DNA of 63,862 bases, filler included. It is 5 parts of 5 records of this genome, joined end to end, with 100 filler letters (N's around TTAATTAATTAA, not from the genome) between each part and the next. Parts side by side here need not be neighbours in the genome. Positions count along the whole stretch, not along the records: positions 57,259 to 63,862 come from SRR20825006_191; 4 more parts are not named here. The stretch is one strand, 5' to 3'. The position numbers were made by a program, and so were the translations under genes. The notes beneath the pieces were generated by a model, which ran no database searches, was not told the DNA's origin, and was given only the letters and a program-made list of their open reading frames with translations. Below, piece by piece: positions 5,422-63,862 of the stretch (position 1 is the first letter of the stretch; every line of letters starts with the position of its first letter).

Positions 5422-5958
5422 TCACTTATGGTCCGTTTTGGAGAAAGAGTTTGCGTCCCGGCGGCTGTTCATTTCTACCGCCGGTTGCGCGCGATCAATG
5501 GCCCCCAGATCCAGTACCGGCGAGGCGTCGATATCGCCGGCATTCATCATTGCCGCAACCCGCTGCAGGGAGCTAAGAATTAGAGATTGCTCCCAATCCT
5601 CAAGGCGGTCAAAGCGCTCGATGAATTCGTCCTGGAGCGGGGTGGGGGCCTTCTCGATGATATCCAGGCCGGCGGAGGTCAGGTGGGCATAAACACGGCG
5701 TTTATCCTGCTCGCCGCGCTTGCGTCCCAATAGATCCCGCTTTTCCAGACGGTCGAGAATGGTGGTGACGGTGGCCTGGCTCAGTGATACCTCGTTGGCC
5801 AGATCCCCCATGGTCATCTCACCGTGCGCCGCAATCGCCTGCATGATGAGAAGCTGGGGCGATGTCAGGCCGGATACCTTGCTCAGCTTGCGTGAGTAGA
5901 GGTCCGTGGCGCGAATGATCTGTCGTAATGCGATTAGCACGTCTTCGTGTCTGGCCAT
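5422..5958 (-). CDS. ectR: MarR-family regulator of ectoine genes (EctR/CosR-like)
   Basis: VLIALRQIIRATDLYSRKL...GLTSPQL...SLSQATVTTILDRLE...DKRRV. Stop lies 4 nt before ectA. Start moved to ATG 5958. Confidence 0.85.
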   Translation of the reverse strand: MARHEDVLIALRQIIRATDLYSRKLSKVSGLTSPQLLIMQAIAAHGEMTMGDLANEVSLSQATVTTILDRLEKRDLLGRKRGEQDKRRVYAHLTSAGLDIIEKAPTPLQDEFIERFDRLEDWEQSLILSSLQRVAAMMNAGDIDASPVLDLGAIDRAQPAVEMNSRRDANSFSKTDHK

Positions 5959-14621: not shown

Positions 14622-14721
14622 NNNNNNNNNNNNNNNNNNNNNNNNNNNNNNNNNNNNNNNNNNNNTTAATTAATTAANNNNNNNNNNNNNNNNNNNNNNN
14701 NNNNNNNNNNNNNNNNNNNNN
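14622..14721. other. Artificial contig spacer
   Basis: N run, TTAATTAATTAA, N run (100 nt in total). Confidence 0.98.
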
Positions 14722-22574: not shown

Positions 22575-22674
22575 NNNNNNNNNNNNNNNNNNNNNNNNNN
22601 NNNNNNNNNNNNNNNNNNTTAATTAATTAANNNNNNNNNNNNNNNNNNNNNNNNNNNNNNNNNNNNNNNNNNNN
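22575..22674. other. Artificial contig spacer
   Basis: N run with TTAATTAATTAA. Confidence 0.98.
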
Positions 22675-33783: not shown

Positions 33784-33883
33784 NNNNNNNNNNNNNNNNN
33801 NNNNNNNNNNNNNNNNNNNNNNNNNNNTTAATTAATTAANNNNNNNNNNNNNNNNNNNNNNNNNNNNNNNNNNNNNNNNNNNN
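33784..33883. other. Artificial contig spacer
   Basis: N run with TTAATTAATTAA. Confidence 0.98.
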
Positions 33884-48873: not shown

Positions 48874-51800
48874 TTAAAGGATAACGAGTTTCTCGAATTT
48901 TTCAACCCGCTGATTTGTTAACGCAGATCTTACCGTAATCTTATAAACATAGACACCTTTTCCGATGCGATCGCCAAAATCATCGCGGCCATCCCAAGTG
49001 ATTTCACGACTAAGGTAGCTACCAGACGGGGCTAAGCTTGCATTTTTTGTCCAAACTACTTTCCCAGTAACCGTAAATACCTGAACCTGTACATCAAGGG
49101 TTTCATCTGGTCTGTTATGATTAAACCAAAATTCGGTGTAATTAACAAATGGATTTGGGTAATTAAGTACGCGGCTTATTTCTAACTTTTCACTACCAGC
49201 AACAATAAATTGTATTTCTGCTGTGGATGAATTATTATAAACATCCCACGCTTTCAGGGTTAGTGTATGCAAACCGTCTTCTAAATCACGGAATTTATAA
49301 TTTGTAATCCCTTTGGTATAATCATCTACTTCGGCTTGGTAAAATTCATTTAAAAGAAAAGGATTAGACTCATCGCCATCGAGCACCGCAACAATATCAT
49401 GTCCAATACCACTTGCCGTATTAATTCCGTTAGGATCTTCTAGTTTCACGAGTAAAATTGGTGAGTCATCAGTAATTCCACCTGAAACGAAACTTTCATC
49501 ATTCATAAAAAGCTTAATAGCTGGACCTTCATTGTCTTCGGGAGCATCCTCATTTAAGCCTCCTACATTCAAATCGAGATTTACACCGGTTTGGTCCTCC
49601 AAAACATCATTTCTTTTTGAATAGAGACTTACCCTTCCCTTACCAACTGGGATTTGTATATCGCGTGGAACTACAAACTCAAACTCAAAAACACCGTTTG
49701 TAATGGATGCTTGACCGTTAAAAAGACCTTCACCCAAAGTAGTGAAATCCATAAATTTATTGTTCCCATCGTTATCTAGCGTTCTACGATTTACTTTTTT
49801 ATCATATATTTTTGCCTCCAGCACACCGTTATATTCCGACATTAAGGAACCACTTTGGCTTAAAACCTCACCTTCCAATTTTATTTTACTTAGCGCTTTT
49901 AAGGTATCTGTAGCTTGGGCAATAGGCACACCGTTTAACTTTGTTAAGCGAATACTTTTTTTAGGGAATGCAAGTCGCATTGCTGGGTCTCCAATGTAAA
50001 AAACAACCCGTCTAAGGGTTCTACCCACTCCCATAGTATTCTTTGAAATTCGCAATCCTTCAGCCGGAGTATTTGGAGGGTCATCACTAAACCCGAATAA
50101 TTGATCCGCCAATAACTCATTAAATGTAACCCCATCATTTATATAAATTGCCCTGGTGGTTGTAACTAGTGATATAGCACCACCTTCCTTATTTTGATAG
50201 GTAAGCTCCCCAGCTGTAATTCGTAATGGGTTATCGAATTTTGTAAACTCGCAAGTAACTGTTATGATACAGGGAAGGTTATCTGAATTTTTTAACTCAA
50301 TTGCTGTTTCTTTTGTATAAATGACTTCTGAAGACAAGCCATCTTCACCTCCATGACCAAAATAATCTATAATAATCGCGCCAACATCAATAGCACTTTT
50401 AATGGCGTCATTAACTTCGGGATAGCGATTTCCTCCGGCTGAAGCTTGTTGTTGGTAGGAATCTGAGTGAATTTTTTTTACATTTATAAAAGGCTTTTCG
50501 GCTTCAATTACATTTCCTAGAGAATCTAATTTTTTTTCTAATATGTCTTCAGATGCTTTATCTACATCATCAGAAATTAACACGAAATTATTTCTCCAGT
50601 TACCATAAGAAGACTGGGATTCATACCTAATAATTTTATCTACCATAGCGTTTGCCAGTGAAACATTATCCACAACAATTCTTCCCATTGCTATATCTAA
50701 CAAATCAATATCTGTTAACGCGCTATTATTGCCAATATCATAGGTTCTACCTCCAATTGTACCTTCATCTTCGTCCATATTACCGAAAAAATCATCAGAC
50801 ATAAATGAGCTACTAATACTAGTGCCCAGTTGTGTTTGGTAGGTTGCCACTATATTATTATTGTTCGCTAGCCGGTTTTTGTAATCAATGGATGCATCGC
50901 CCATTATCCCAACATACTTAACACGTTTATCTATAGAAGAAGCATTGTAATAAACATACCTGATAAAATTTCTAATTGCAGCAATGTCTTGTCTTCCGGA
51001 ACTAAACTCTTCATAAATTTTATCGGTAGTAACCACCTTTACATTGAGCCCTTGAAGGTTTTTATGATAAGTAGCCAAACGTAATGCTGGCTGAATCAGA
51101 AACGGAGCTGTAATAATAATGTAATCTACATCTTTAAAATTTCCAGATTGATCTTTAAAAATAGTCCCTTTTAAATTTTGGTTTTGAACTTGGGACTGTG
51201 CAAGTTTCACTGGAACATAATAGTCATTTGGATTTATTGCAACGTAATTTCGCACTTGCCCCATTGTTTGCTTAAAACTTAATGTAGCCTCATTATTTTC
51301 ATTTTGTTTTGAAGTGATAAACTGAAAGTCTGTTACATCCCAAACTTGTGAAAACTGCGTAGCATTTGTTATTTGATACTCCCCTACTCCTGTTATTGTT
51401 GCGGCATCATTATATTGAAAAAGCAATTGACCAGTTACACCGCTCAATTTTCGTTTTGCCCAAATACTAATATAATCTAGATACCCAACACTGGACGGGT
51501 TACTAGCATTGTTATACTCCAAATCTACAGTCACAGTTTCCCCACTTGCTGGAATATCGACCGTTAATTGATCCATACCTAATAAGTTTCCATTCCCTAA
51601 TTTGGCAAAATTAAGTGGATCCAAACTCGTGCTATTTGCAGACACCGCCATTGAGGTCGTGCTTTCTGAGGTTGCTGCTGCTTTTACTGTAAGTGTAATT
51701 GGTTTTCCTGAAATAATGTTGGGAAATTCAAAACTAAAACTCTGTTCACTTTCAATATCAAAACGGTTCCCGAACCACTTTCTTCCAACTTTTGAAGGGC

Positions 51801-52740
51801 TATACTCGTCTTTTTCATAAAATTGATAATCATCAAACTCAGTGATATTTATATTTGCTGCGCCAGAAGGCTCTACCATTGGCACCACTCTTTTCCCAGG
51901 AGCCCCACCAACAGTAACATAATAATAGGAATCGTCACTATATGGATTTAGATTTGAATCATTTTCCTTCACATATCCTTCGGTACTAGTTCCATAAAAC
52001 AAAATGTAGTCTCCACCATCAAAACTACCATCTGCTTCACCTACAACCTGTATTGCATTTTCAGGTAAATCAAAATATTTGGTTTGTCTATTTAATAAAG
52101 GAAGTGAGTTTCCACCGTTACCATAAATTTTAATATTTCTAGGGTTAATACCATCTGTATTCATTCCCAAATCATTTAGAAATGATCTGTCTAACTTATA
52201 AACCCCCGTTTTAGGCACTTTAAATTTAAACCATTGCCCAGTTGCTAAAACTGAATTGGTTATTGCAGGAGGTGCGTTTTTACGCTGAGAACCATAGGTA
52301 TAGTTAATATCAAAAGAAAGTACTTTTTGATAGGTTCCATTATTTTTTATGATAGGAGAAATATTGAAAATAGTATAAAGCTCATCTCTCGCCATTGTAC
52401 TAGAAATAGAATATTCAAGCTTAGTTGGTAAGTTATTAGGATTTATTTTTTTTAATTCTTCTGAAGAAACAGATCCATAACGCACATTCGTAACAGTTAT
52501 GGAGTTTTTATCAGCAAAACCACCGTCTTTCCATTGGGTTGCATAACTCACATTATCCTTATTCAACTGAAGCTTAAGTCTATCTAAAGCTTCTTCATAG
52601 GCAGAACCTGAAGATTTTCCACCAGCGAAACTTTTGGATGTGCTGGTTGAAGCACCCCAATTTATAGTTATGCTTTTTGATTGCGCTTTTCCTATAAAAG
52701 GCATCAAAATTAGGGTAAATAAAAGTATCGTTTTTCTCAT
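48874..52740 (-). CDS. porU: T9SS sortase PorU (peptidase C25)
   Basis: SVLATGQWFK, C25 domain with YFGHGG and VTCEF catalytic dyad, AWDVYNN, CTD (NYPNPF...WDGRDD.G..IGKGVY.Y). Start moved to ATG 52740. Confidence 0.94.
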   Translation of the reverse strand: MRKTILLFTLILMPFIGKAQSKSITINWGASTSTSKSFAGGKSSGSAYEEALDRLKLQLNKDNVSYATQWKDGGFADKNSITVTNVRYGSVSSEELKKINPNNLPTKLEYSISSTMARDELYTIFNISPIIKNNGTYQKVLSFDINYTYGSQRKNAPPAITNSVLATGQWFKFKVPKTGVYKLDRSFLNDLGMNTDGINPRNIKIYGNGGNSLPLLNRQTKYFDLPENAIQVVGEADGSFDGGDYILFYGTSTEGYVKENDSNLNPYSDDSYYYVTVGGAPGKRVVPMVEPSGAANINITEFDDYQFYEKDEYSPSKVGRKWFGNRFDIESEQSFSFEFPNIISGKPITLTVKAAATSESTTSMAVSANSTSLDPLNFAKLGNGNLLGMDQLTVDIPASGETVTVDLEYNNASNPSSVGYLDYISIWAKRKLSGVTGQLLFQYNDAATITGVGEYQITNATQFSQVWDVTDFQFITSKQNENNEATLSFKQTMGQVRNYVAINPNDYYVPVKLAQSQVQNQNLKGTIFKDQSGNFKDVDYIIITAPFLIQPALRLATYHKNLQGLNVKVVTTDKIYEEFSSGRQDIAAIRNFIRYVYYNASSIDKRVKYVGIMGDASIDYKNRLANNNNIVATYQTQLGTSISSSFMSDDFFGNMDEDEGTIGGRTYDIGNNSALTDIDLLDIAMGRIVVDNVSLANAMVDKIIRYESQSSYGNWRNNFVLISDDVDKASEDILEKKLDSLGNVIEAEKPFINVKKIHSDSYQQQASAGGNRYPEVNDAIKSAIDVGAIIIDYFGHGGEDGLSSEVIYTKETAIELKNSDNLPCIITVTCEFTKFDNPLRITAGELTYQNKEGGAISLVTTTRAIYINDGVTFNELLADQLFGFSDDPPNTPAEGLRISKNTMGVGRTLRRVVFYIGDPAMRLAFPKKSIRLTKLNGVPIAQATDTLKALSKIKLEGEVLSQSGSLMSEYNGVLEAKIYDKKVNRRTLDNDGNNKFMDFTTLGEGLFNGQASITNGVFEFEFVVPRDIQIPVGKGRVSLYSKRNDVLEDQTGVNLDLNVGGLNEDAPEDNEGPAIKLFMNDESFVSGGITDDSPILLVKLEDPNGINTASGIGHDIVAVLDGDESNPFLLNEFYQAEVDDYTKGITNYKFRDLEDGLHTLTLKAWDVYNNSSTAEIQFIVAGSEKLEISRVLNYPNPFVNYTEFWFNHNRPDETLDVQVQVFTVTGKVVWTKNASLAPSGSYLSREITWDGRDDFGDRIGKGVYVYKITVRSALTNQRVEKFEKLVIL

Positions 52741-52757
52741 TAGTACCATTAACGCTG

Positions 52758-52842
52758 CAAATATACACTTAGTATAAGCTAACAATTTAAACTTTTCACC
52801 TAAAATGATATTAGGATAATAATTTTAAAACTAATACGTTTG
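52758..52842. promoter_or_regulatory. Divergent Bacteroidota -7 elements for porU and gldJ
   Basis: TATATTTG on the minus strand (52758-52765) and TACGTTTG on the plus strand (52835-52842). Confidence 0.5.
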
Positions 52843-57078: not shown

Positions 57079-57106
57079 AAAAACCGAAGTTTTCACTTCG
57101 GTTTTT
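57079..57106 (-). terminator. Terminator after tRNA-Val
   Basis: AAAAACCGAAGT-TTTC-ACTTCGGTTTTT, with a longer T tail on the minus strand. Confidence 0.8.
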
Positions 57107-57111
57107 AAATC

Positions 57112-57158
57112 TGGTGGGCGATGAGGGGTTCGAACCCCCGACCCCCTCGGTGTAAACG
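57112..57158 (-). tRNA. tRNA-Val(TAC), 5'-truncated by contig end
   Basis: Minus strand CG-TTTACAC-CGAGGGGGTCGGGGGTTCGAACCCCTCATCGCCCACCA: TAC anticodon, GTTCGAA T-loop, CCA end. Confidence 0.92.
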
Positions 57159-57258
57159 NNNNNNNNNNNNNNNNNNNNNNNNNNNNNNNNNNNNNNNNNN
57201 NNTTAATTAATTAANNNNNNNNNNNNNNNNNNNNNNNNNNNNNNNNNNNNNNNNNNNN
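57159..57258. other. Artificial contig spacer
   Basis: N run with TTAATTAATTAA. Confidence 0.98.
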
Positions 57259-57373
57259 AATTTCCCGGAATTTCCCCGAAATTTTCCCTGAAAGTTTTCC
57301 CGTCGGGAATTTTCTCGGAATTTCCCGGAATTTCCCCGAAATTTCGCCCAGAAGTTTTCTCGTCCGGGAATTT
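57259..57373 (+). repeat. Left-end tandem repeat: about 1.9 copies of a 60-bp unit built from ~10-bp TTTCnnnGAA subunits
   Basis: AATTTCCCGGAATTTCCCCGAAATTT... starts at 57259 and again at 57319. Confidence 0.9.
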
Positions 57374-57664
57374 ACAGCTACTTTTCATAAACTTATGTGC
57401 AGTGGTTATCCTCGTATACGTGCGATGCATTTCCCGGTAAGTGTAATGCATGCGTTTTACAAACTGTATTTTTATAGTCATACGTAGTACACATAACATA
57501 CGTATACACGTTTAGAGGTGTATAATAACCACGTGTTTAACATATATGTTGTACGTGTTGACGACGTATCATTAATGCTAATGCATATTAAGAAAAGCTA
57601 GGTGATGTTGTATGTTGTATCTATCCGGAAGGTTACCGTAATCGAATTAGAACTATGCAGTATT

Positions 57665-60600
57665 ACACCTTTCCTGGGATGGTACTCGTAACGGATATAC
57701 TCCGGGAAACATAACACGATGCATTAACATATTACGTATAAGCATAATTTGTAGTTATATGCTTGGTATTGTAAGGGGTTCACGTGAAAATAATAGCTGG
57801 TGCAATACAAGCATTTAATTAATATTTTTTATGTTTTATACAGATACATATTTGTAGGTATTACCTGGAAAGGTGGCATTGCGCACGTCTAACATACGCT
57901 ACAACCCGTGGGTGACATTAATTACACTACGGGCAGTATAATAAACTCGACGCCATCACCAACGCAAGTTATGTTACATATTGTGTAAGCACTCCCACGG
58001 CTATCACATACAGCATGGACATATACAACACACCTTTCCTGTAAAATTAAGTACGTATAAACATAACGCATACAAAACAAATCTAAATACGTTGTAAGCA
58101 AGTAGTCACGTACAACACTATGTATGCGCTGTGGGTATTACCTGGTAAGCGTCTAACCATCTCAACATGTCCTCGTAGTTATAGGATACAAATAATAAGA
58201 AACAATGCAATGCACCTTTCCTATGTTAGCAAGTGTATGCATATTGGTTTATCGGACAACAAAATACGACATGTAATTGTAATGTAACCTTAGATACACA
58301 GTAGCTCTCCCGCAGGTGAAATGTGCGGTACTCCATACGTTACAATTACGTAGTGTATCGTGTTATACTTATGCATACAGTCTGATGTAATGTTATATAC
58401 CTAGTACGTGTATATTATTAACGTACAATACTATTAATATGTATATAGCAAAACACCAAAAAAAAAAAGAGCTGTAACGTAAGTTATGACTAACGTCCCG
58501 TGTGTCTATAATTTTTAAGGCATGCTTACCACGTGGTCTGTTGTACACTACCCGCAGGCATTCACTCATACATGTTACGTGGTGGGAGTATGCACACCTT
58601 TCCTTAAAGTTCATGTACACCTAATAAGTAACGACACATAAAATACCACACCGAACACACCCATGAGTATAGCCTATACAGACGTGCATACAACAGGCGT
58701 TTTAAAACAGTTAAATGCGTAACATGCTACACGTGTTACCGTAACACGTGTACGAGACGTACGTATTGTACGATAGTGGTGCATGATCCCGAGTTATGCA
58801 TTTTAAATTTTATACATATCAGTGTATGTGGTTACTGACTTTTTTCCGGAAGGCGTGTATCGAGTAATTACACGGCATTACATGCATACACGGTATTCCG
58901 TATCACATGCATAGTCCACATATATAACGGGTTACACCTTTCCTGTAAAAACGATGTTCTCTCGGCATGTACGTATGCAACAACAAACAAATACATAACT
59001 CACATACATGTAATAGATGTAACAACATGCAGTAGTTACTGAAATTTTTTTTAATGCGTTTCCACATAACACGCCTACGTAATGCGTAATATCCCGTGGT
59101 ACGATATGTACGTTGTTAAGTTACGCACACGACGCGGTGTATTTCCGATCGCGATACCTACTATGGTCGTACATGCATGTCTATCGTGGTTTTTTGTCAT
59201 TACAATACCCGTAAAACGCGACAGGTTTGGAAAGGTGTCCGTCCAGGGATATTCATATAGATAAGCTGTCTTCTAATTATGTAATGCCTACACCTTTCCG
59301 TAATTGATAAGTACAGCGTTAACGTAACACAACGAAAACACTCAAAAGCAAAAGTACATATTATGGCATGCATCCCGGTTATGCCGTACCCGATGCATAC
59401 TGTACTTTACTATTTTGTTTTGTTACGTGCGACGGAATACTCATACTACACTTCCCAGGAAAGGTGTGCATATTATATGCTACGTACATCGTATATACTA
59501 TACTAAAAAGTTGGTACACAAAAACTATACGGATATGTATTGTACATGGTGGTACAAACGTACGCATGTAGTAATACACCCCTGCTTATTACTTACCTGT
59601 GTAGTTTATGTTTTATTTGTGTTTGTGTTACAAGGATACTATTACCACGGCGTATAGGAAAGGTGTGTCCAGCTACCACTGAACATGTGTGTTATCATAT
59701 AACTTACCATATGTACGTATACGTTAACATGTGCAGTACATGTTATGCACGTGTAATACGGATCATATTACAAGCAAGTACGCGGGGTGTTTGTTATCAC
59801 GAAAACAAAAAGGCATGCATCCCTATGCATGGTGGCTATACGTAACGTATATTACGTAACATGTAATCACGTAAATAACCCGCGTATTATGCACTGTGTA
59901 TATACGTATACAAAAATATGTTATGTTATACCGTGACACACCAGGATAAGCACATCTCAAATCCTTATTTTTGTTTTCATTTTGATGCACACTGGATGTA
60001 TTAAATTTATTAAAAACGGTGTAACTGTATTGGTATGACTGTATTGTTACACTCATCCGTTACATTTTTTTACATACACGGATATGGTTAATGATCTACC
60101 AGTAATAACAGGTGGTACATGCGGCATACCGACATACAGATTCCGTTCAGTATTAACCACAAAACTACGTGCATTAAAACGTATTAACGCGTACATGCGA
60201 TTATGTAGTAGACATACGAAAAGTACAGACTCCCGAAGCGTGCAACGCAATGCACAATCTCGTCGTGTACATTATTGGACGTAGCCTTACCGGAGTTACT
60301 AAAACTAATTGTGCTTGGTTTATGTTTTTTATACACGTGGAGATACGTGCGTGTATGCGCTGGAAAGGTGTTATACGCGTACGTCCATAAGAATATACTT
60401 TTCATAGGTAAAGCATTTAAAGTACGATAAACGCACCCAAGGCGGTATAGTCGGAGGTACCCTACAATGCGGGCATCCCACAGCCAACGCCACACGCATA
60501 TTATGTAAGCTGTGCACCTTTCCCGTAATCGTGTTATGTACTGCTTATATAGCAATAACAAAACCTAGAATTGAAAGATGTCGCATTACATGTTATACTT

Positions 60601-63600
60601 GATGCATTGTGCTGCCCATATATGTACGCATATACTCCGTATATTACGTATGCTGCATGTTATGTATGTAATGCTACACATGTACACCCGCTCTGTATAT
60701 ATGTTTTGCATGTACCACACATGTCAGTATACATAGTTTCGGAATGGAGACGTTGCGTATGTGTCGTTCCATGATAACGGATGTCTTAATTTTATTTTTT
60801 TGTGATTATAAATTTCATGGAAATAACCTATATTTATTAGGAAAGGTGTAAACGTATATCCCATCGTGCATGACAATAATAAAAACGCATAGTACAACCA
60901 TATGGTATAACTCTATAGCGCATACCGTACACATCTCACGTCCCACGACGGTGTAGGCTGTACTACACCTTTCCTAGTGGATGTAGATGCCCCATACCCG
61001 TGTAAAAAACATCAAAATAAATTTGTAAGTGTAATATGCTGGCACATTACACATGTGTGCGTGACTAAGGGGTATTTACATGATGTACTACCTAGTCCGT
61101 ATAGTTTAATACATCCCATGTGATTGCACCTTTCCTGGTATGTAGCGTATACCGTAAAGTGCAGCAAACAACAAAAATAAGCTCAGTAGAATATTGTAAT
61201 ACCTGGGAAGTATCACATATACGATGTGCACTGCTACTAAGTGAAACGTACTACTCATACAAGGTGTACAGTATATAATAGTATACCTCTCTGTGCTTAT
61301 GACATACGCCGTACGTACACCTTTCCTGGGTAACAACGACATTTAAAAAACACCGCACAACCAAAAACTATAAAACTAAATAATACTTTTTATGTAACGT
61401 ACATTACGTAGTGCGTCGCGGTGTATTAATACGTTGTTTTACCGTTTGGTAGATACGTACTATATCGTGCACATGTTATATACACGTATTTATGTCGTAC
61501 GCGTATAAGTAAACTTTGTTTTGCTGTTTTGCTCGCGTACACTCCATGGTATACTACGTGGAGGACATACACCCATATACATATATAACACGTACCGGCT
61601 CGGGTGTACACTTACACGTACACCTTTCCTCAAGTATAGTAGATACGTATACACACGTAACAACATTAAAAAACTATATTATCATACTCCGATGGGCGTT
61701 ACATTGATAATACACTTACGTCGTGGCGTATTATTAACCCCACTCCGGGGATGCTATCCCTACACCGTGCACGGTACACAACACGTGTACGCGAAGTAAC
61801 GTCAATACTTATTCCGTTTACGTGCACGTCCCAGGTAGCATATACAAATTTATTATTTGTGTAATAATAGATACACGCTGTTCATGCAGATACCTACCCG
61901 GTAATGCGTATACCCATGCACGCCTACCAACATAGTAACGTAACTTGCTTGTGTGTGTACGCGCATGGAGAACCCTACAAGGTAACCTTTCATCATGTGG
62001 AATACATAACTGCCCGCATATAGCACAGCGTATATCGTGTTACAACTCTTGTGTAACCTTCCCATTATGTATGGAGATTACGTAATTAGTAATCCGACAG
62101 ACCTGCCTAGGAAAGGTGTACCCCGGTGTTGTATGGTACTAACGGACTACCATCACAGGTGCATGTGTGTATTGTAGATACCTATACCCTTACAATCACA
62201 TTGTGTAATTGGGATTACGTCACTATACGTACATTACCCACATGATTGTGGTATGTTAACTGTACGTAAGTATATCAAACGACGTTACTGTATATATACC
62301 CCGATAGGAGAGTATACGTTACTACCCTGCAATGTATACGTGTGGTTTTTTGTCATGTTCGTACATGTACCTGCAGTGTTATAGGAAAGGTGTGACTATT
62401 TACCCTTACGTTACATATAGTACTGTGCGTACATCATTCTATACTGCAAAGGTTATACTATTACTTATTATATACAAGTATGAGTATTACATGCGTGTTG
62501 GGATCTTCCCCGGTACACCACCAGACTACGATAAAATTTACACGGTATGGTACTGTACCGTTTACGTACACGCCACACCTTTCCAGAGTATGCATGTACT
62601 ATCTAACCTATATAGAACAAACAAAAAAATAGAGTAACGTTATACATTGTACGGACTTGAACGTCTGTAATTGATTTAATATATGTAGTGCAGTATATTG
62701 CTACCTGTTACCCGTCATGTAGTTGTTACGGAACGTGTTTACCGTTGTACCCCGGTTACTACTGTTGGAAGGGTTTGTTGTTTTTTTATAATCGTTTACA
62801 ATACATACCCTGCCCGGAAAGGTGTATTGTTTCACGTTATATGCAGATACCATCCCGCACAGGGTTTGCATTGCACCGCTGATCACGTATTATGTACATG
62901 ACTTACGTATCCTGGAAGTTCTTGTGCATGCTTGTCTTTGTTTGTTCTGAATTGTATGATAGCATACTATACCGGAGGGGTTATCTCGGAAAGGTGTGCA
63001 TGCTATCCAACAGGATTAGTGTTGATTACGTTGTATGCTTTCATGTTAATAATCAGACACGTACAACATCGGAAAGGTGTGAATCCCGCATGTTTTACGT
63101 ACGTATATATATCGTAATATATAATATATTACGAAACTCACACCCCGCGGAGGGCACACCTTTCCGAATATGAATTAACAAATTAATAACTAACAAAACT
63201 TAAACACCGTAAGCACATGTGATACAAACTATGCAACCACAGTACCACGTACATGATGTGCATGTAGTATTGCGTTATGCCGTTACGTGTAGGTATGTAT
63301 CGCGATAGCGATTGTACATATATCGTGTGTTTGTTGGAAAGGTGTGTACATGTAGGTTGTAATTACATACTACGTAATGTGTTTTGTACATTTACGCATA
63401 CAGAGTGTGTAACAGTTAAACCGTTGTGTACTTAGTGCACGTATGCAATACCGGACTTTCCCCGGGGAATACATCGTTATTAACCCACCTGCGCTGTAGA
63501 TGTGTACCCCCCCCCCCCTTAAAAAATGTAGTCCCATGTTTTAAAAAAACAGATGCGTTAATCTTACGACAGTACTGCACCGACATGCTGTAACAGTGAT

Positions 63601-63651
63601 ATTTTTATAAAATGTGCAAATACATTTATATAATTAATGTTACACCTTTCC
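57665..63651. repeat. Dispersed array of 26 GGAAAGGTG(T) motifs with linked T-tracts in non-coding DNA
   Basis: Plus strand: 57867, 59229, 59458, 59657, 60362, 60840, 62110, 62384, 62816, 62988, 63071, 63336. Minus strand ((A)CACCTTTCC): 57665, 58030, 58213, 58594, 58934, 59290, 60515, 60965, 61127, 61317, 61620, 62575, 63156, 63642. Confidence 0.92.
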
Positions 63652-63828
63652 AGCAGTATGCGGCGTATCTGGGTATACAACACACAAAATAAAAAAATAA
63701 ATAATAGTGTGTATATCTAACCCGTATAACATAGTAAGCTTGCCGTATATGATGTTGATATATGGTAAACAAAACATAACGACTATGTATAACATGTAAT
63801 AACGTATTGTATATTTCAGATAATAACA

Positions 63829-63862
63829 GGAAAAATTCCCGACGGGAAAATTTTCGGGGAAA
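63829..63862 (-). repeat. Right-end repeat, inverted relative to the left end
   Basis: 63832-63850 is the exact reverse complement of 57295-57313, and 63852-63862 of 57271-57281. Confidence 0.85.

What the first reader, a model, noticed from the sequence alone, without database searches (positions are those of the whole stretch)
57259..63862. ORF-free 6.6-kb element built of about 26 oriented bipartite cassettes (T-tract, ~30 nt, GGAAAGGTGT) on both strands
Seen: the 9-mer GGAAAGGTG occurs 26 times (12 plus, 14 minus). About 0.05 copies are expected by chance at uniform composition. In about 22 of 26 copies a T(G)-rich tract lies 30-50 nt upstream on the same strand, and it flips with motif orientation. 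Examples: TTTGTTGTTTTTTT at 62774 before 62816; AACAAACAAAAAAA at 62617 after the minus site 62575; AAACAACAAAAA at 61166 after 61127. Two units share GTGGTTTTTTGTCAT (59186, 62342) at 43 and 42 nt before the motif. Exceptions: 62110 and 63336; weak: 57665 and 63071. The rest of each unit is unique, so this is neither satellite DNA nor CRISPR. There is no credible ORF. Inference: a fixed element plus a variable payload at a fixed distance is how arrays of individually specified small RNAs are built (kinetoplast gRNA cassettes, nematode Ruby-motif piRNA loci). A protein-binding or origin array is the alternative. I do not recognise the motif.
Basis: partly seen in the sequence, partly recalled or inferred. 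Interest (0 to 1): 0.88.

Follow-up and report, generated by a model that had tools for sequence, protein, structure and literature searches.

The report
Linear mini-chromosome packed with guide-RNA-like cassettes
This 6.6-kb gene-free stretch is a separate linear DNA molecule from a marine microbe, carrying 26 small oriented cassettes that most resemble the guide-RNA genes of kinetoplastid mitochondria, in an arrangement not found in the papers searched.

Summary
GGAAAGGTG occurs 26 times (12+, 14-), only in 57259-63862 (0.51 expected). A T/G-rich tract lies 31-58 nt upstream on the same strand in 22 of 26 copies, against 9% of all positions.

The stretch is a whole contig, joined to four bacterial contigs by N linkers. 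It has no ORF beyond chance under any stop set. Its ends are inverted tandem repeats of 60 nt.

A Tara marine scaffold (L004, 7878 bp) has the same build: 70-nt inverted end repeats, 32 motifs and the same odd base composition, with an otherwise unrelated interior. In one sequencing run the end repeats have about 100 times the depth of the interior, and other 6.3- and 8.0-kb contigs carry them. So this is one member of a family of linear mini-chromosomes.

The closest known system is the linear guide-RNA molecules of Trypanoplasma borreli. My best reading (about 0.5) is a guide-RNA gene array from an undescribed marine kinetoplastid-type mitochondrion. No targets or small RNAs could be tested. 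CSB3 and the T. borreli motif are absent. I rate it a new variant of a known kind.

The parts
57259..57373 (.). Left terminal repeat array: 1.9 copies of a 60-nt unit built of ~11-nt TTTCCC/GGAAA-type subrepeats. The contig starts inside the array.
   Evidence: (D7); summed contig depth 4502.8 against 43.1 inside
63832..63862 (.). Right terminal repeat, an inverted copy of part of the left unit (31 nt, 94% complementary). The contig ends inside it.
   Evidence: I1, I23; depth 1681.5 in the last bin
57665..57732 (-). Cassette 1 (motif 57665-57674, weak tract, score 11). For all cassettes, strand is the strand that reads GGAAAGGTGT; the proposed guide RNA would be the opposite strand.
   Evidence: related to the L004 588- unit
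57809..57876 (+). Cassette 2 (motif 57867-57876, GGAAAGGTGG variant at position 10, tract score 13)
   Evidence: related to the L004 777+ unit
58030..58097 (-). Cassette 3 (motif 58030-58039, tract 13)
58212..58279 (-). Cassette 4 (motif 58212-58221, GGAAAGGTGC, tract 13)
58594..58661 (-). Cassette 5 (motif 58594-58603, tract 14)
58934..59001 (-). Cassette 6 (motif 58934-58943, tract 14). A contig of run X1 lies on it from 58928 onward.
59171..59238 (+). Cassette 7 (motif 59229-59238, tract 13)
59290..59357 (-). Cassette 8 (motif 59290-59299, tract 14), back to back with cassette 7, 51 nt between the motifs
59400..59467 (+). Cassette 9 (motif 59458-59467, tract 13)
59599..59666 (+). Cassette 10 (motif 59657-59666, tract 14)
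60304..60371 (+). Cassette 11 (motif 60362-60371, tract 14)
60514..60581 (-). Cassette 12 (motif 60514-60523, GGAAAGGTGC, tract 13)
60782..60849 (+). Cassette 13 (motif 60840-60849, tract 14)
60965..61032 (-). Cassette 14 (motif 60965-60974, tract 13)
61126..61193 (-). Cassette 15 (motif 61126-61135, GGAAAGGTGC, tract 14)
61317..61384 (-). Cassette 16 (motif 61317-61326, tract 14)
61620..61687 (-). Cassette 17 (motif 61620-61629, tract 13)
62052..62119 (+). Cassette 18 (motif 62110-62119, no tract, score 11)
62326..62393 (+). Cassette 19 (motif 62384-62393, tract 14). A contig of run X1 shares the sequence from 62380 onward but has other letters before it.
62575..62642 (-). Cassette 20 (motif 62575-62584, tract 14)
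62758..62825 (+). Cassette 21 (motif 62816-62825, tract 15)
62930..62997 (+). Cassette 22 (motif 62988-62997, tract 14)
63013..63080 (+). Cassette 23 (motif 63071-63080, weak tract, score 12), only 73 nt after cassette 22; possibly decayed
63156..63223 (-). Cassette 24 (motif 63156-63165, tract 13)
63278..63345 (+). Cassette 25 (motif 63336-63345, no tract at the usual place, score 11)
63642..63709 (-). Cassette 26 (motif 63642-63651, tract 14)

Best explanation
The stretch is one complete, or nearly complete, linear mini-chromosome of a multipartite organellar genome. The owner is a marine protist whose DNA was co-assembled with bacteria.

Shown. The molecule is capped by inverted arrays of a 60-70-nt tandem repeat that many sibling molecules of 6-8 kb share. 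It codes for no protein. It carries about four cassettes per kb on both strands. Each cassette has an invariant GGAAAGGTGT(A/G), a ~30-nt spacer with bulk composition, and a sequence-unique T/G-rich, C-free tract at -58..-31.

Inferred. Each cassette is a guide-RNA gene of the kinetoplastid kind. The complement of the motif (ACACCTTTCC) would act as a promoter or processing signal. Transcription would run away from it on the opposite strand. The A/C-rich complement of the tract, about 28 nt, would be the information part of a small RNA that pairs with U/G-rich edited mitochondrial mRNA and directs U insertion and deletion. Tens of such chromosomes would give several hundred to over a thousand guides.
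For: Architecture
- 26 of 26 motif copies are perfect and confined to the contig. Together with L004 there are 58 perfect copies against only 2 one-mismatch variants, which indicates strong selection on every base.
- A strand-coupled tract occurs in 22 of 26 and 23 of 32 copies, against 9% background. Its proximal edge is sharp at -31/-30.
- Footprints (-55..+10) overlap in 0 of 56 neighbour pairs. By my own estimate about 12 overlaps would be expected for random placement.
- Minimal spacing by orientation is 51 nt back to back, 73 and 88 then at least 120 in tandem, and at least 158 convergent. This gives a cassette of roughly 105 nt.
- Orientation is mixed without pattern.

Tract composition. 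It is T .52-.60, G .19-.21, A .13-.19, C .06-.10. U-rich with G > A >> C is what I recall for pan-edited kinetoplastid mRNA. Perkinsela edited ORFs are 40-62% U (PMC4669381, Table 1).

Family of molecules. The end bins have depth 4502.8 and 1681.5 against 43.1 inside. X1 contigs of 6313 and 7978 nt carry the same ends. L004 from a Tara marine metagenome has the same ends, motif and composition but an unrelated interior.

Non-coding, and no fold signal in the cassettes. See for coding and for folding (mean z -0.15 and -0.35).

Published parallels
- T. borreli guide-RNA molecules are probably linear and flanked by inverted repeat arrays. Loci lie on both strands without pattern. The motif RYAGGCTTT lies 20-40 bp from the mRNA-like hit, upstream of the guide. 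The median duplex is 28 bp with few G:U pairs (PMC9679448, passages).
- Species-specific motifs at a fixed distance from guide genes occur in T. brucei, L. tarentolae and L. pyrrhocoris (PMC8034629, passages).
[quoted passage not shown] The only feature its candidate guide genes share is 'an A- or an A/C-rich tract' (PMC4669381).
- Linear ~600-bp guide molecules occur in Apiculatamorpha (PMC7859406).
Against: - No target mRNA, gene-bearing chromosome or marker gene of the organism was available, so complementarity to edited mRNA is untested.
- CSB3, found on all trypanosomatid minicircles and in the T. borreli end repeats, is absent within 2 mismatches from the element and the L004 end repeats; L004's single interior match is at chance level. 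The T. borreli motif is absent too.
- The 58 tracts are no more alike than column-shuffled tracts: the top score is 16 against 13-18 in 12 nulls. So no redundant or overlapping guides were seen. With a 10-kb target space I would have expected about 3 detectable overlaps. A merely compositional T/G element explains the tracts as well.
- The transition-only divergence I first saw between related units came from selecting on purine/pyrimidine identity. Unbiased local alignments give 14 transitions to 29 transversions in the 12 best pairs. There is therefore no G:U-tolerant covariation signal.
- The strongly enriched core is only about 17 nt, which is short for a guide.
- Perkinsela authors place the A/C tract upstream of the complementary region. 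That would put the guide distal to the tract, where I see only background composition.
Confidence: 0.5

Rival explanations
1. A DNA-level bipartite signal array. The C-free G/T-rich strand (tract plus motif) would be bound as single-stranded or duplex DNA by a sequence-specific protein. The sites would serve as replication or priming sites, or as segregation or packaging sites, spread along a non-coding linear organellar chromosome. No specific RNA product is made.
For: - The tracts carry no detectable sequence information beyond position-specific composition.
- The tract sits at a fixed place with a sharp edge and a G peak at -34, like a spaced two-box site.
- By eye, the motif consensus AGGAAAGGTGTA matches the minicircle origin block CSB3 (ggggttggtgta, as printed in PMC8034629) at 8 of 12 positions, including the last six.
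- I recall that CSB3 is bound as G/T-rich single-stranded DNA by UMSBP.
Against: - 26-32 origins on both strands of a 7-kb molecule have no precedent that I know of.
- An unwinding element would be A+T-rich rather than T/G-rich with A depleted.
- An 8 of 12 match, chosen among several known blocks and offsets, is weak.
- A chromosome with no product would have no reason to persist as tens of distinct sequence classes with unique interiors.
Confidence: 0.15
2. Small-RNA genes of another kind, or in another lineage. Examples are guide-like RNAs of a diplonemid or an unknown marine euglenozoan (for U-appendage or transcript joining), or promoter-driven mini-genes comparable to nematode Ruby-motif piRNA loci, on an extrachromosomal linear element.
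For: - The fixed motif plus individually specified short variable part on both strands is generic to such arrays.
- The source is marine (a Tara scaffold), where diplonemids are abundant (PMC7049700, abstract start in the search listing).
- The 6.3-8.0-kb size range recalls diplonemid chromosomes of 6 and 7 kbp (PMC7049700, passage).
- No kinetoplastid hallmark (CSB3) was found.
Against: - Diplonemid chromosomes are circular and share a constant region that makes up most of the molecule (PMC7049700). Here only the ends are shared.
- Antisense or guide RNAs were looked for and not detected in D. papillatum (PMC12699882, passages).
- The depth relations and shared ends fit a high-copy multipartite organelle-type genome rather than a nuclear piRNA cluster.
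Confidence: 0.15
3. A decayed or selfish repeat landscape. The cassettes would be copies of a short mobile or recombination-prone element (MITE-like) that spread through a non-coding linear plasmid, with no cellular function.
For: - In run X1, contigs share cassette-sized pieces with the element and then diverge at the motif (loose ends at 58928 and 62380).
- There are a few short patches of similarity between cassettes of the two chromosomes.
Against: - Copies of a mobile element would share their whole length. Here only 10-11 nt are shared and they are invariant (58 perfect, 2 one-off), while everything else is unique.
- No terminal inverted repeats or target duplications flank the cassettes.
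- There is no match in the plasmid or phage collections.
Confidence: 0.05

Closest known systems
ScaI-flanked guide-RNA molecules of Trypanoplasma borreli kDNA (PMC9679448; passages seen)
   Same: Probably linear. A unique interior is flanked by inverted arrays of a tandem repeat. There are no protein genes. Putative guide loci lie on both strands without order, about two dozen per molecule. A short conserved motif lies 20-40 bp from the mRNA-like region, on the guide's upstream side. The duplexes are short (median 28 bp) with few G:U pairs.
   Different: About 70 kb against 6.6-7.9 kb here, so cassette density is about ten times higher. The motif differs (RYAGGCTTT is absent). The T. borreli end repeats carry a CSB3-like block, and ours do not.
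Trypanosoma brucei minicircle guide-RNA cassettes (PMC8034629 passages; PMC9202587 title and abstract start in a search listing only)
   Same: Several cassettes per molecule, each bounded by a conserved short sequence. [quoted passage not shown] The payloads are individually specified. There are many sequence classes.
   Different: 1-kb catenated circles with a conserved region (CSB1-3) and 18-mer inverted repeats around each cassette. Here the molecules are linear, there is no CSB3, and each cassette has a single one-sided 10-mer.
Perkinsela sp. mitochondrial DNA (PMC4669381; section 6 part 1 and passages)
   Same: Marine. [quoted passage not shown] The mass of non-coding mtDNA is very large. 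The only feature its candidate guide genes share is an A- or A/C-rich tract, which is what the complement of our tract is.
   Different: The authors report no other common motif, an average contig length of 730 bp, and no similarity among the end repeats of the three gene-bearing contigs. Whether our element is Perkinsela DNA was not testable, because no Perkinsela sequence was at hand and the supplements are closed.
Linear ~600-bp guide-RNA molecules of Apiculatamorpha spiralis (PMC7859406; passages)
   Same: Linear, high-copy, non-coding guide-RNA carriers in an early-branching free-living kinetoplastid.
   Different: One guide region of ~85 bp per molecule, with the rest highly conserved. 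Here there are 26-32 cassettes and the interior is unique.
Nematode Ruby-motif 21U/piRNA loci
   Same: It works alike in outline: a short upstream motif at a fixed distance from each of thousands of individually specified small-RNA mini-genes on both strands.
   Different: Those are nuclear chromosomal clusters with a different motif. Here the molecules are high-copy linear mini-chromosomes with shared telomere-like ends.

Membership tests
Kinetoplastid guide-RNA-bearing kDNA molecules (minicircle class in the wide sense) | Short species-specific conserved sequence at a fixed distance from each guide locus | tested here: met
   Invariant 10-mer in 58 of 58 copies, with the variable tract at -58..-31 and a sharp edge. 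The feature is as described in PMC9679448 and PMC8034629.
Kinetoplastid guide-RNA-bearing kDNA molecules (minicircle class in the wide sense) | CSB3 / universal minicircle sequence (ggggttggtgta) on the molecule | tested here: not met
   There is no match within 2 mismatches in 57259-63862. L004 has one interior match at chance level. Both contigs stop inside the end arrays, so more distal repeats are unseen. The cassette motif itself matches 8 of 12 by eye.
Kinetoplastid guide-RNA-bearing kDNA molecules (minicircle class in the wide sense) | Variable region complementary, with G:U pairs, to edited mitochondrial mRNA | not testable with these tools
Indirect tests were null: no excess similarity among tracts and no transition bias.
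Kinetoplastid guide-RNA-bearing kDNA molecules (minicircle class in the wide sense) | Expressed small RNAs (about 30-60 nt, 3' oligo-U) from the loci | not testable with these tools
   No RNA holder is listed. The one run guessed to be RNA gave only low-depth contigs with no relation to the cassettes.
Kinetoplastid guide-RNA-bearing kDNA molecules (minicircle class in the wide sense) | Many sequence classes that share a conserved part and differ in the guide-bearing part | tested here: met
   The ends are shared at about 100-fold depth. Sibling contigs of 6313 and 7978 nt exist. The L004 interior is unrelated apart from the motifs.
T. borreli-type linear guide-RNA molecules | Unique interior flanked by inverted arrays of a tandem repeat | tested here: met
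   A 60-nt unit is present in 1.9 copies at the left end, with an inverted copy at the right end. L004 has a 70-nt unit in 3.1 copies and an inverted array at the other end.
T. borreli-type linear guide-RNA molecules | Motif RYAGGCTTT near the loci | tested here: not met
   0 matches in the element (the 4 matches in the window all lie in the bacterial contigs) and 0 in L004.
T. borreli-type linear guide-RNA molecules | About 70 kb with about 23 loci per molecule | tested here: not met
   6.6 kb with 26 cassettes, and 7.9 kb with 32.
Diplonemid mitochondrial chromosomes | Circular, mostly a constant region shared within a class, with one short unique cassette holding a gene module | tested here: not met
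   Inverted terminal repeats at both contig ends. Only about 115 nt of ends are shared with L004. There are 26 cassettes and no coding signal. The feature is from PMC7049700.
CRISPR array / satellite DNA | Direct repeats of one orientation at regular spacing (CRISPR), or head-to-tail repeat units (satellite) | tested here: not met
   Both orientations occur (12+/14-) and spacing is 62-705 nt. The only tandem arrays are at the ends.

The most novel reading that the evidence does not exclude
The cassettes are guide-type small-RNA genes in a marine euglenozoan lineage for which no guide RNAs are known, such as a diplonemid relative or a so far unsampled group. Alternatively they serve an RNA-guided process other than U-indel editing. 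Either way the family of telomere-capped 6-8-kb chromosomes would be a new kind of dedicated small-RNA genome. The lack of CSB3, the lack of any redundancy among 58 payloads and the unexplained purine/pyrimidine-alternating bulk DNA leave room for this reading.
Probability: 0.15. Interest if true: 0.85.

Novelty: new variant of a known kind. Interest (0 to 1): 0.62.

Why it matters
How guide RNAs are encoded outside trypanosomatids is known for only a handful of species. For free-living kinetoplastids a 2026 preprint counts just two public nuclear genomes and notes that kDNA is hard to assemble (10.64898/2026.09.29.755400, passage).

If the reading is right, this is a complete guide-RNA chromosome of a marine kinetoplastid-type organism. 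It has a new positional motif and roughly ten times the cassette density of the T. borreli molecules. It uses telomere-like capping instead of circles and lacks the origin block found on all trypanosomatid minicircles. That bears on how kDNA architectures arose and how such genomes are replicated.

The invariant 10-mer is also a practical handle. It lets one pull the whole set of such chromosomes out of marine metagenomes. It also flags this DNA as eukaryotic organellar contamination in bacterial bins.

Tried and rejected

Sequencing runs
- No RNA holder is listed.
- X5, guessed to be RNA, gave six low-depth contigs unrelated to cassette borders. This says nothing on expression.
- The holes in cover in X4-X6 are uninformative.

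Collection scans
- Genome contigs: a 26-mer of the end repeat gave 0 hits. A 19-mer gave 12 hits, and none of those 12 loci carries the cassette motif.
- Viral contigs: 0, 1, 0 and 11 hits for four patterns. Those loci carry at most 1-3 motif copies, so I read them as chance.
- Metagenome contigs: 5 hits. Only L004 is a sibling. L003 is a chance hit in a GC-rich bacterial contig. L001, L002 and L005 are repeat-rich marine contigs without the motif.
- Plasmid and phage collections: no match.

RNA families and folding
- Rfam gave nothing at gathering level. Only sub-threshold, low-complexity matches fell on the end repeats.
- The cassettes show no fold signal.

Coding
- Open frames under TGA-only stops (475 codons) exceeded mononucleotide shuffles. 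Markov controls that keep the GA depletion match them: 49 of 100 at order 1 and 98 of 100 at order 2.
- Table-4 frames translate to Y/C/T/V/R/H-rich strings.
- 0 of 5 ORFs match Pfam.

Guide-specific tests
- Purine/pyrimidine-level repeat search. One 31-nt in-register run stands out, 57867+ against L004 777+. It lies in a weakly homologous left subterminal arm.
- In the two payload windows of that arm I counted 15 transitions to 2 transversions. That count is circular, because the pair was picked by purine/pyrimidine identity.
- Unbiased alignments give 14 transitions to 29 transversions.
- The tracts are not more alike than column-shuffled tracts.

Literature
- A search for the motif strings found only primer-like hits among the 30 of 1,240 papers listed.
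- Four topic searches listed no paper whose title or abstract start describes this motif or a 6-8-kb linear guide-RNA chromosome. The supplements of PMC4669381 (File S3, candidate guide genes) could bear on this but are closed.


Full report
WHAT IS THERE

The window is not one piece of DNA. Four linkers of N44-TTAATTAATTAA-N44 split it into five contigs. The finding covers the whole of the last one, 57259-63862 (6604 nt, 38.5% G+C).

The other four contigs are densely coding bacterial DNA of unlike composition, 33-58% G+C in 2-kb windows. One carries the type IX secretion sortase PorU. Others carry MalT-like, GGDEF/EAL and TonB-receptor genes. The element was therefore co-assembled with more than one bacterium.

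THE OBSERVATION

GGAAAGGTG occurs 26 times, 12 on + and 14 on -, only in this contig. Shuffles give 0.51, and 0 of 100 reach 26.

Aligned on the motif, the strand that reads GGAAAGGTG has T+G of 0.80-0.89 at -45..-31 and no C at -40..-36. By a fixed rule (a 15-nt window with at least 13 T+G within -62..-25), 22 of 26 copies have the tract against 9.4% of all positions. Only 2 of 26 pass on the mirror side, and 0 of 26 have an A/C-rich window upstream.

The motif extends to GGAAAGGTGT (52 of 58 with L004) followed by A or G (52 of 58). G is avoided just upstream of it.

No open frame exceeds composition-matched chance under any of four stop sets. The five longest ORFs have no Pfam match.

THE ENDS AND THE FAMILY

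The contig begins with 1.9 copies of a 60-nt unit built of ~11-nt TTTCCC/GGAAA-type subrepeats. It ends with an inverted copy (31 nt, 94% complementary).

A 21-mer of that repeat found five metagenome contigs. One of them, L004, is a 7878-bp Tara marine scaffold with the same design:
- It has 3.1 copies of a 70-nt unit at one end and an inverted array at the other.
- It has 32 perfect motifs, 15+ and 17-.
- A tract is present in 23 of 32.
- It has no ORFs beyond shuffles, 38.0% G+C, and the same dinucleotide bias.

BLAST finds only the ends in common. A more permissive BLAST finds little beyond the motifs themselves. MAFFT shows a weakly homologous left subterminal arm that includes the first two cassettes of each molecule.

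Six public runs from three studies hold the element, three of them completely. In run X1 one 6551-nt contig at depth 43.1 covers it. The bins with the end repeats sum to 4502.8 and 1681.5. Other contigs of 6313 and 7978 nt carry the same repeat. Further contigs lie on single cassettes and then diverge.

I infer tens of sibling linear chromosomes of 6-8 kb. That means some hundreds to more than a thousand cassettes. The count is an estimate, because the number of repeat copies per end is unknown.

ANATOMY OF A CASSETTE

The bulk DNA of both molecules alternates purines and pyrimidines (0.646 and 0.641 against 0.5). GA/TC is at about 0.5 and AC/GT at about 1.5-1.67 of expectation.

Only two places break this pattern, the tract at -60..-31 and the motif at -10..+10. 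The ~30-nt spacer between them looks like bulk DNA.

Footprints never overlap, 0 of 56 neighbour pairs. The smallest distances between motifs depend on orientation: 51 nt back to back, 73 and 88 then at least 120 in tandem, and at least 158 convergent. From this I infer a cassette of roughly 75 nt on the tract side and about 22 nt on the other side. This rests on minima of 12-15 values per class and is rough.

The motif is under very strong constraint, with 58 perfect copies against 2 one-mismatch variants. The cassettes do not fold.

WHAT IT MOST LIKELY IS

The best parallel in print is the kDNA of Trypanoplasma borreli. Its contigs have unique interiors flanked by inverted arrays of a repeat and are probably linear. 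Putative guide-RNA loci lie on both strands without order, about 23 per molecule. Each has the motif RYAGGCTTT 20-40 bp from the mRNA-like hit, upstream of the guide. The median duplex is 28 bp with few G:U pairs (PMC9679448, passages).

Positional motifs next to guide genes are general in kinetoplastids (PMC8034629, passages). [quoted passage not shown] Its candidate guide genes share only an A- or A/C-rich tract (PMC4669381, passages and section 6 part 1).

Read on the opposite strand, our cassette is ACACCTTTCC, then 30 nt, then about 28 nt of A/C-rich unique sequence. Its complement is U-rich with G > A >> C, as I recall for edited kinetoplastid mRNA.

I therefore read the cassettes as guide-RNA genes and the motif as their promoter or processing signal. 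The molecule would be one chromosome of the guide-RNA part of a kinetoplastid-type mitochondrial genome. I give this about 0.5.

WHAT SPEAKS AGAINST IT

- I could not reach any mRNA, gene-bearing chromosome or marker gene of the organism, so pairing with targets is untested.
- CSB3 is absent within two mismatches, and the T. borreli motif is absent.
- The 58 tracts are no more alike than column-shuffled tracts. There is thus no sign of the redundancy typical of guide sets, and the tract could be a purely compositional element.
- I first saw transition-only differences between related cassettes. That signal came from selecting on purine/pyrimidine identity. Unbiased alignments give 14 transitions to 29 transversions.

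RIVALS

- An array of protein-binding, priming or origin sites. By eye the motif matches CSB3 at 8 of 12 positions, including the last six (CSB3 as printed).
- Small-RNA genes of another kind or lineage. Diplonemids have 6- and 7-kbp chromosomes, but these are circular and mostly constant region, and guide RNAs were sought there and not found (PMC7049700 and PMC12699882, passages).
- A selfish repeat.

NOVELTY

No paper listed by five searches shows this motif or a 6-8-kb linear chromosome with ~30 cassettes in its title or abstract start. The supplements of the Perkinsela paper, which list its candidate guide genes, were closed. I rate the element a new variant of a known kind.

A marine kinetoplastid such as Perkinsela or a bodonid is a lead, not a result.

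Noticed in passing
window 14622-14721, 22575-22674, 33784-33883, 57159-57258: Four N44-TTAATTAATTAA-N44 linkers show that the window is five contigs strung together. The contigs differ widely in G+C, from about 0.33 to 0.58 in 2-kb windows.
   Followed up: yes
window 48874-52785 (-) and contigs 1-33783: The low-G+C contig (33884-57158) encodes a full-length type IX secretion sortase PorU. In my experience this is typical of Bacteroidota, but that is recalled. The higher-G+C contigs encode MalT-like, GGDEF/EAL and TonB-receptor proteins. At least two different bacteria seem to be mixed with the element.
   Followed up: partly
window 57106-57158: The last bases of the fourth contig look by eye like the 3' part of a bacterial tRNA on the minus strand (a GGTTCGAA-type T-arm), cut by the contig end. 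ARAGORN calls nothing there.
   Followed up: partly
whole element and L004 260-7700: The bulk DNA alternates purine and pyrimidine (0.64-0.65 of steps). GA/TC is halved and AC/GT is raised 1.5-1.67-fold. Only the tract and the motif break the pattern. The cause is unknown. It makes purine runs and T runs rare outside the cassettes.
   Followed up: partly
L001, L002, L005 (marine metagenome contigs): These contigs are full of TTTCCCGGAA/GGGGAAATTT-type short repeats like the element's ends. They have no cassette motif and a different, homopolymer-rich style. L001 and L005 look by eye like the same sequence on opposite strands. They could be other DNA of the same or a related organism, or unrelated low-complexity DNA.
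   Followed up: partly
window 57374-57900 against L004 230-800: The left subterminal arms of the two chromosomes are weakly homologous, in patches of 60-90% identity that include the first two cassettes of each. The right arms are not. This suggests that the chromosomes arise by duplication and divergence from the ends inward.
   Followed up: partly
window 63509-63535; L004 about 5808-5840: There is a run of 11 C followed by TTAAAAAA in the element, and a G run next to A runs in L004. These are the only long homopolymers in the interiors. I saw them by eye only.
   Followed up: no
window 59667-60361, 61630-62109; L004 3727-4376: Cassette-free gaps of 480-700 nt occur in each chromosome. BLAST found no similarity between them, and their content is unexplained.
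   Followed up: partly
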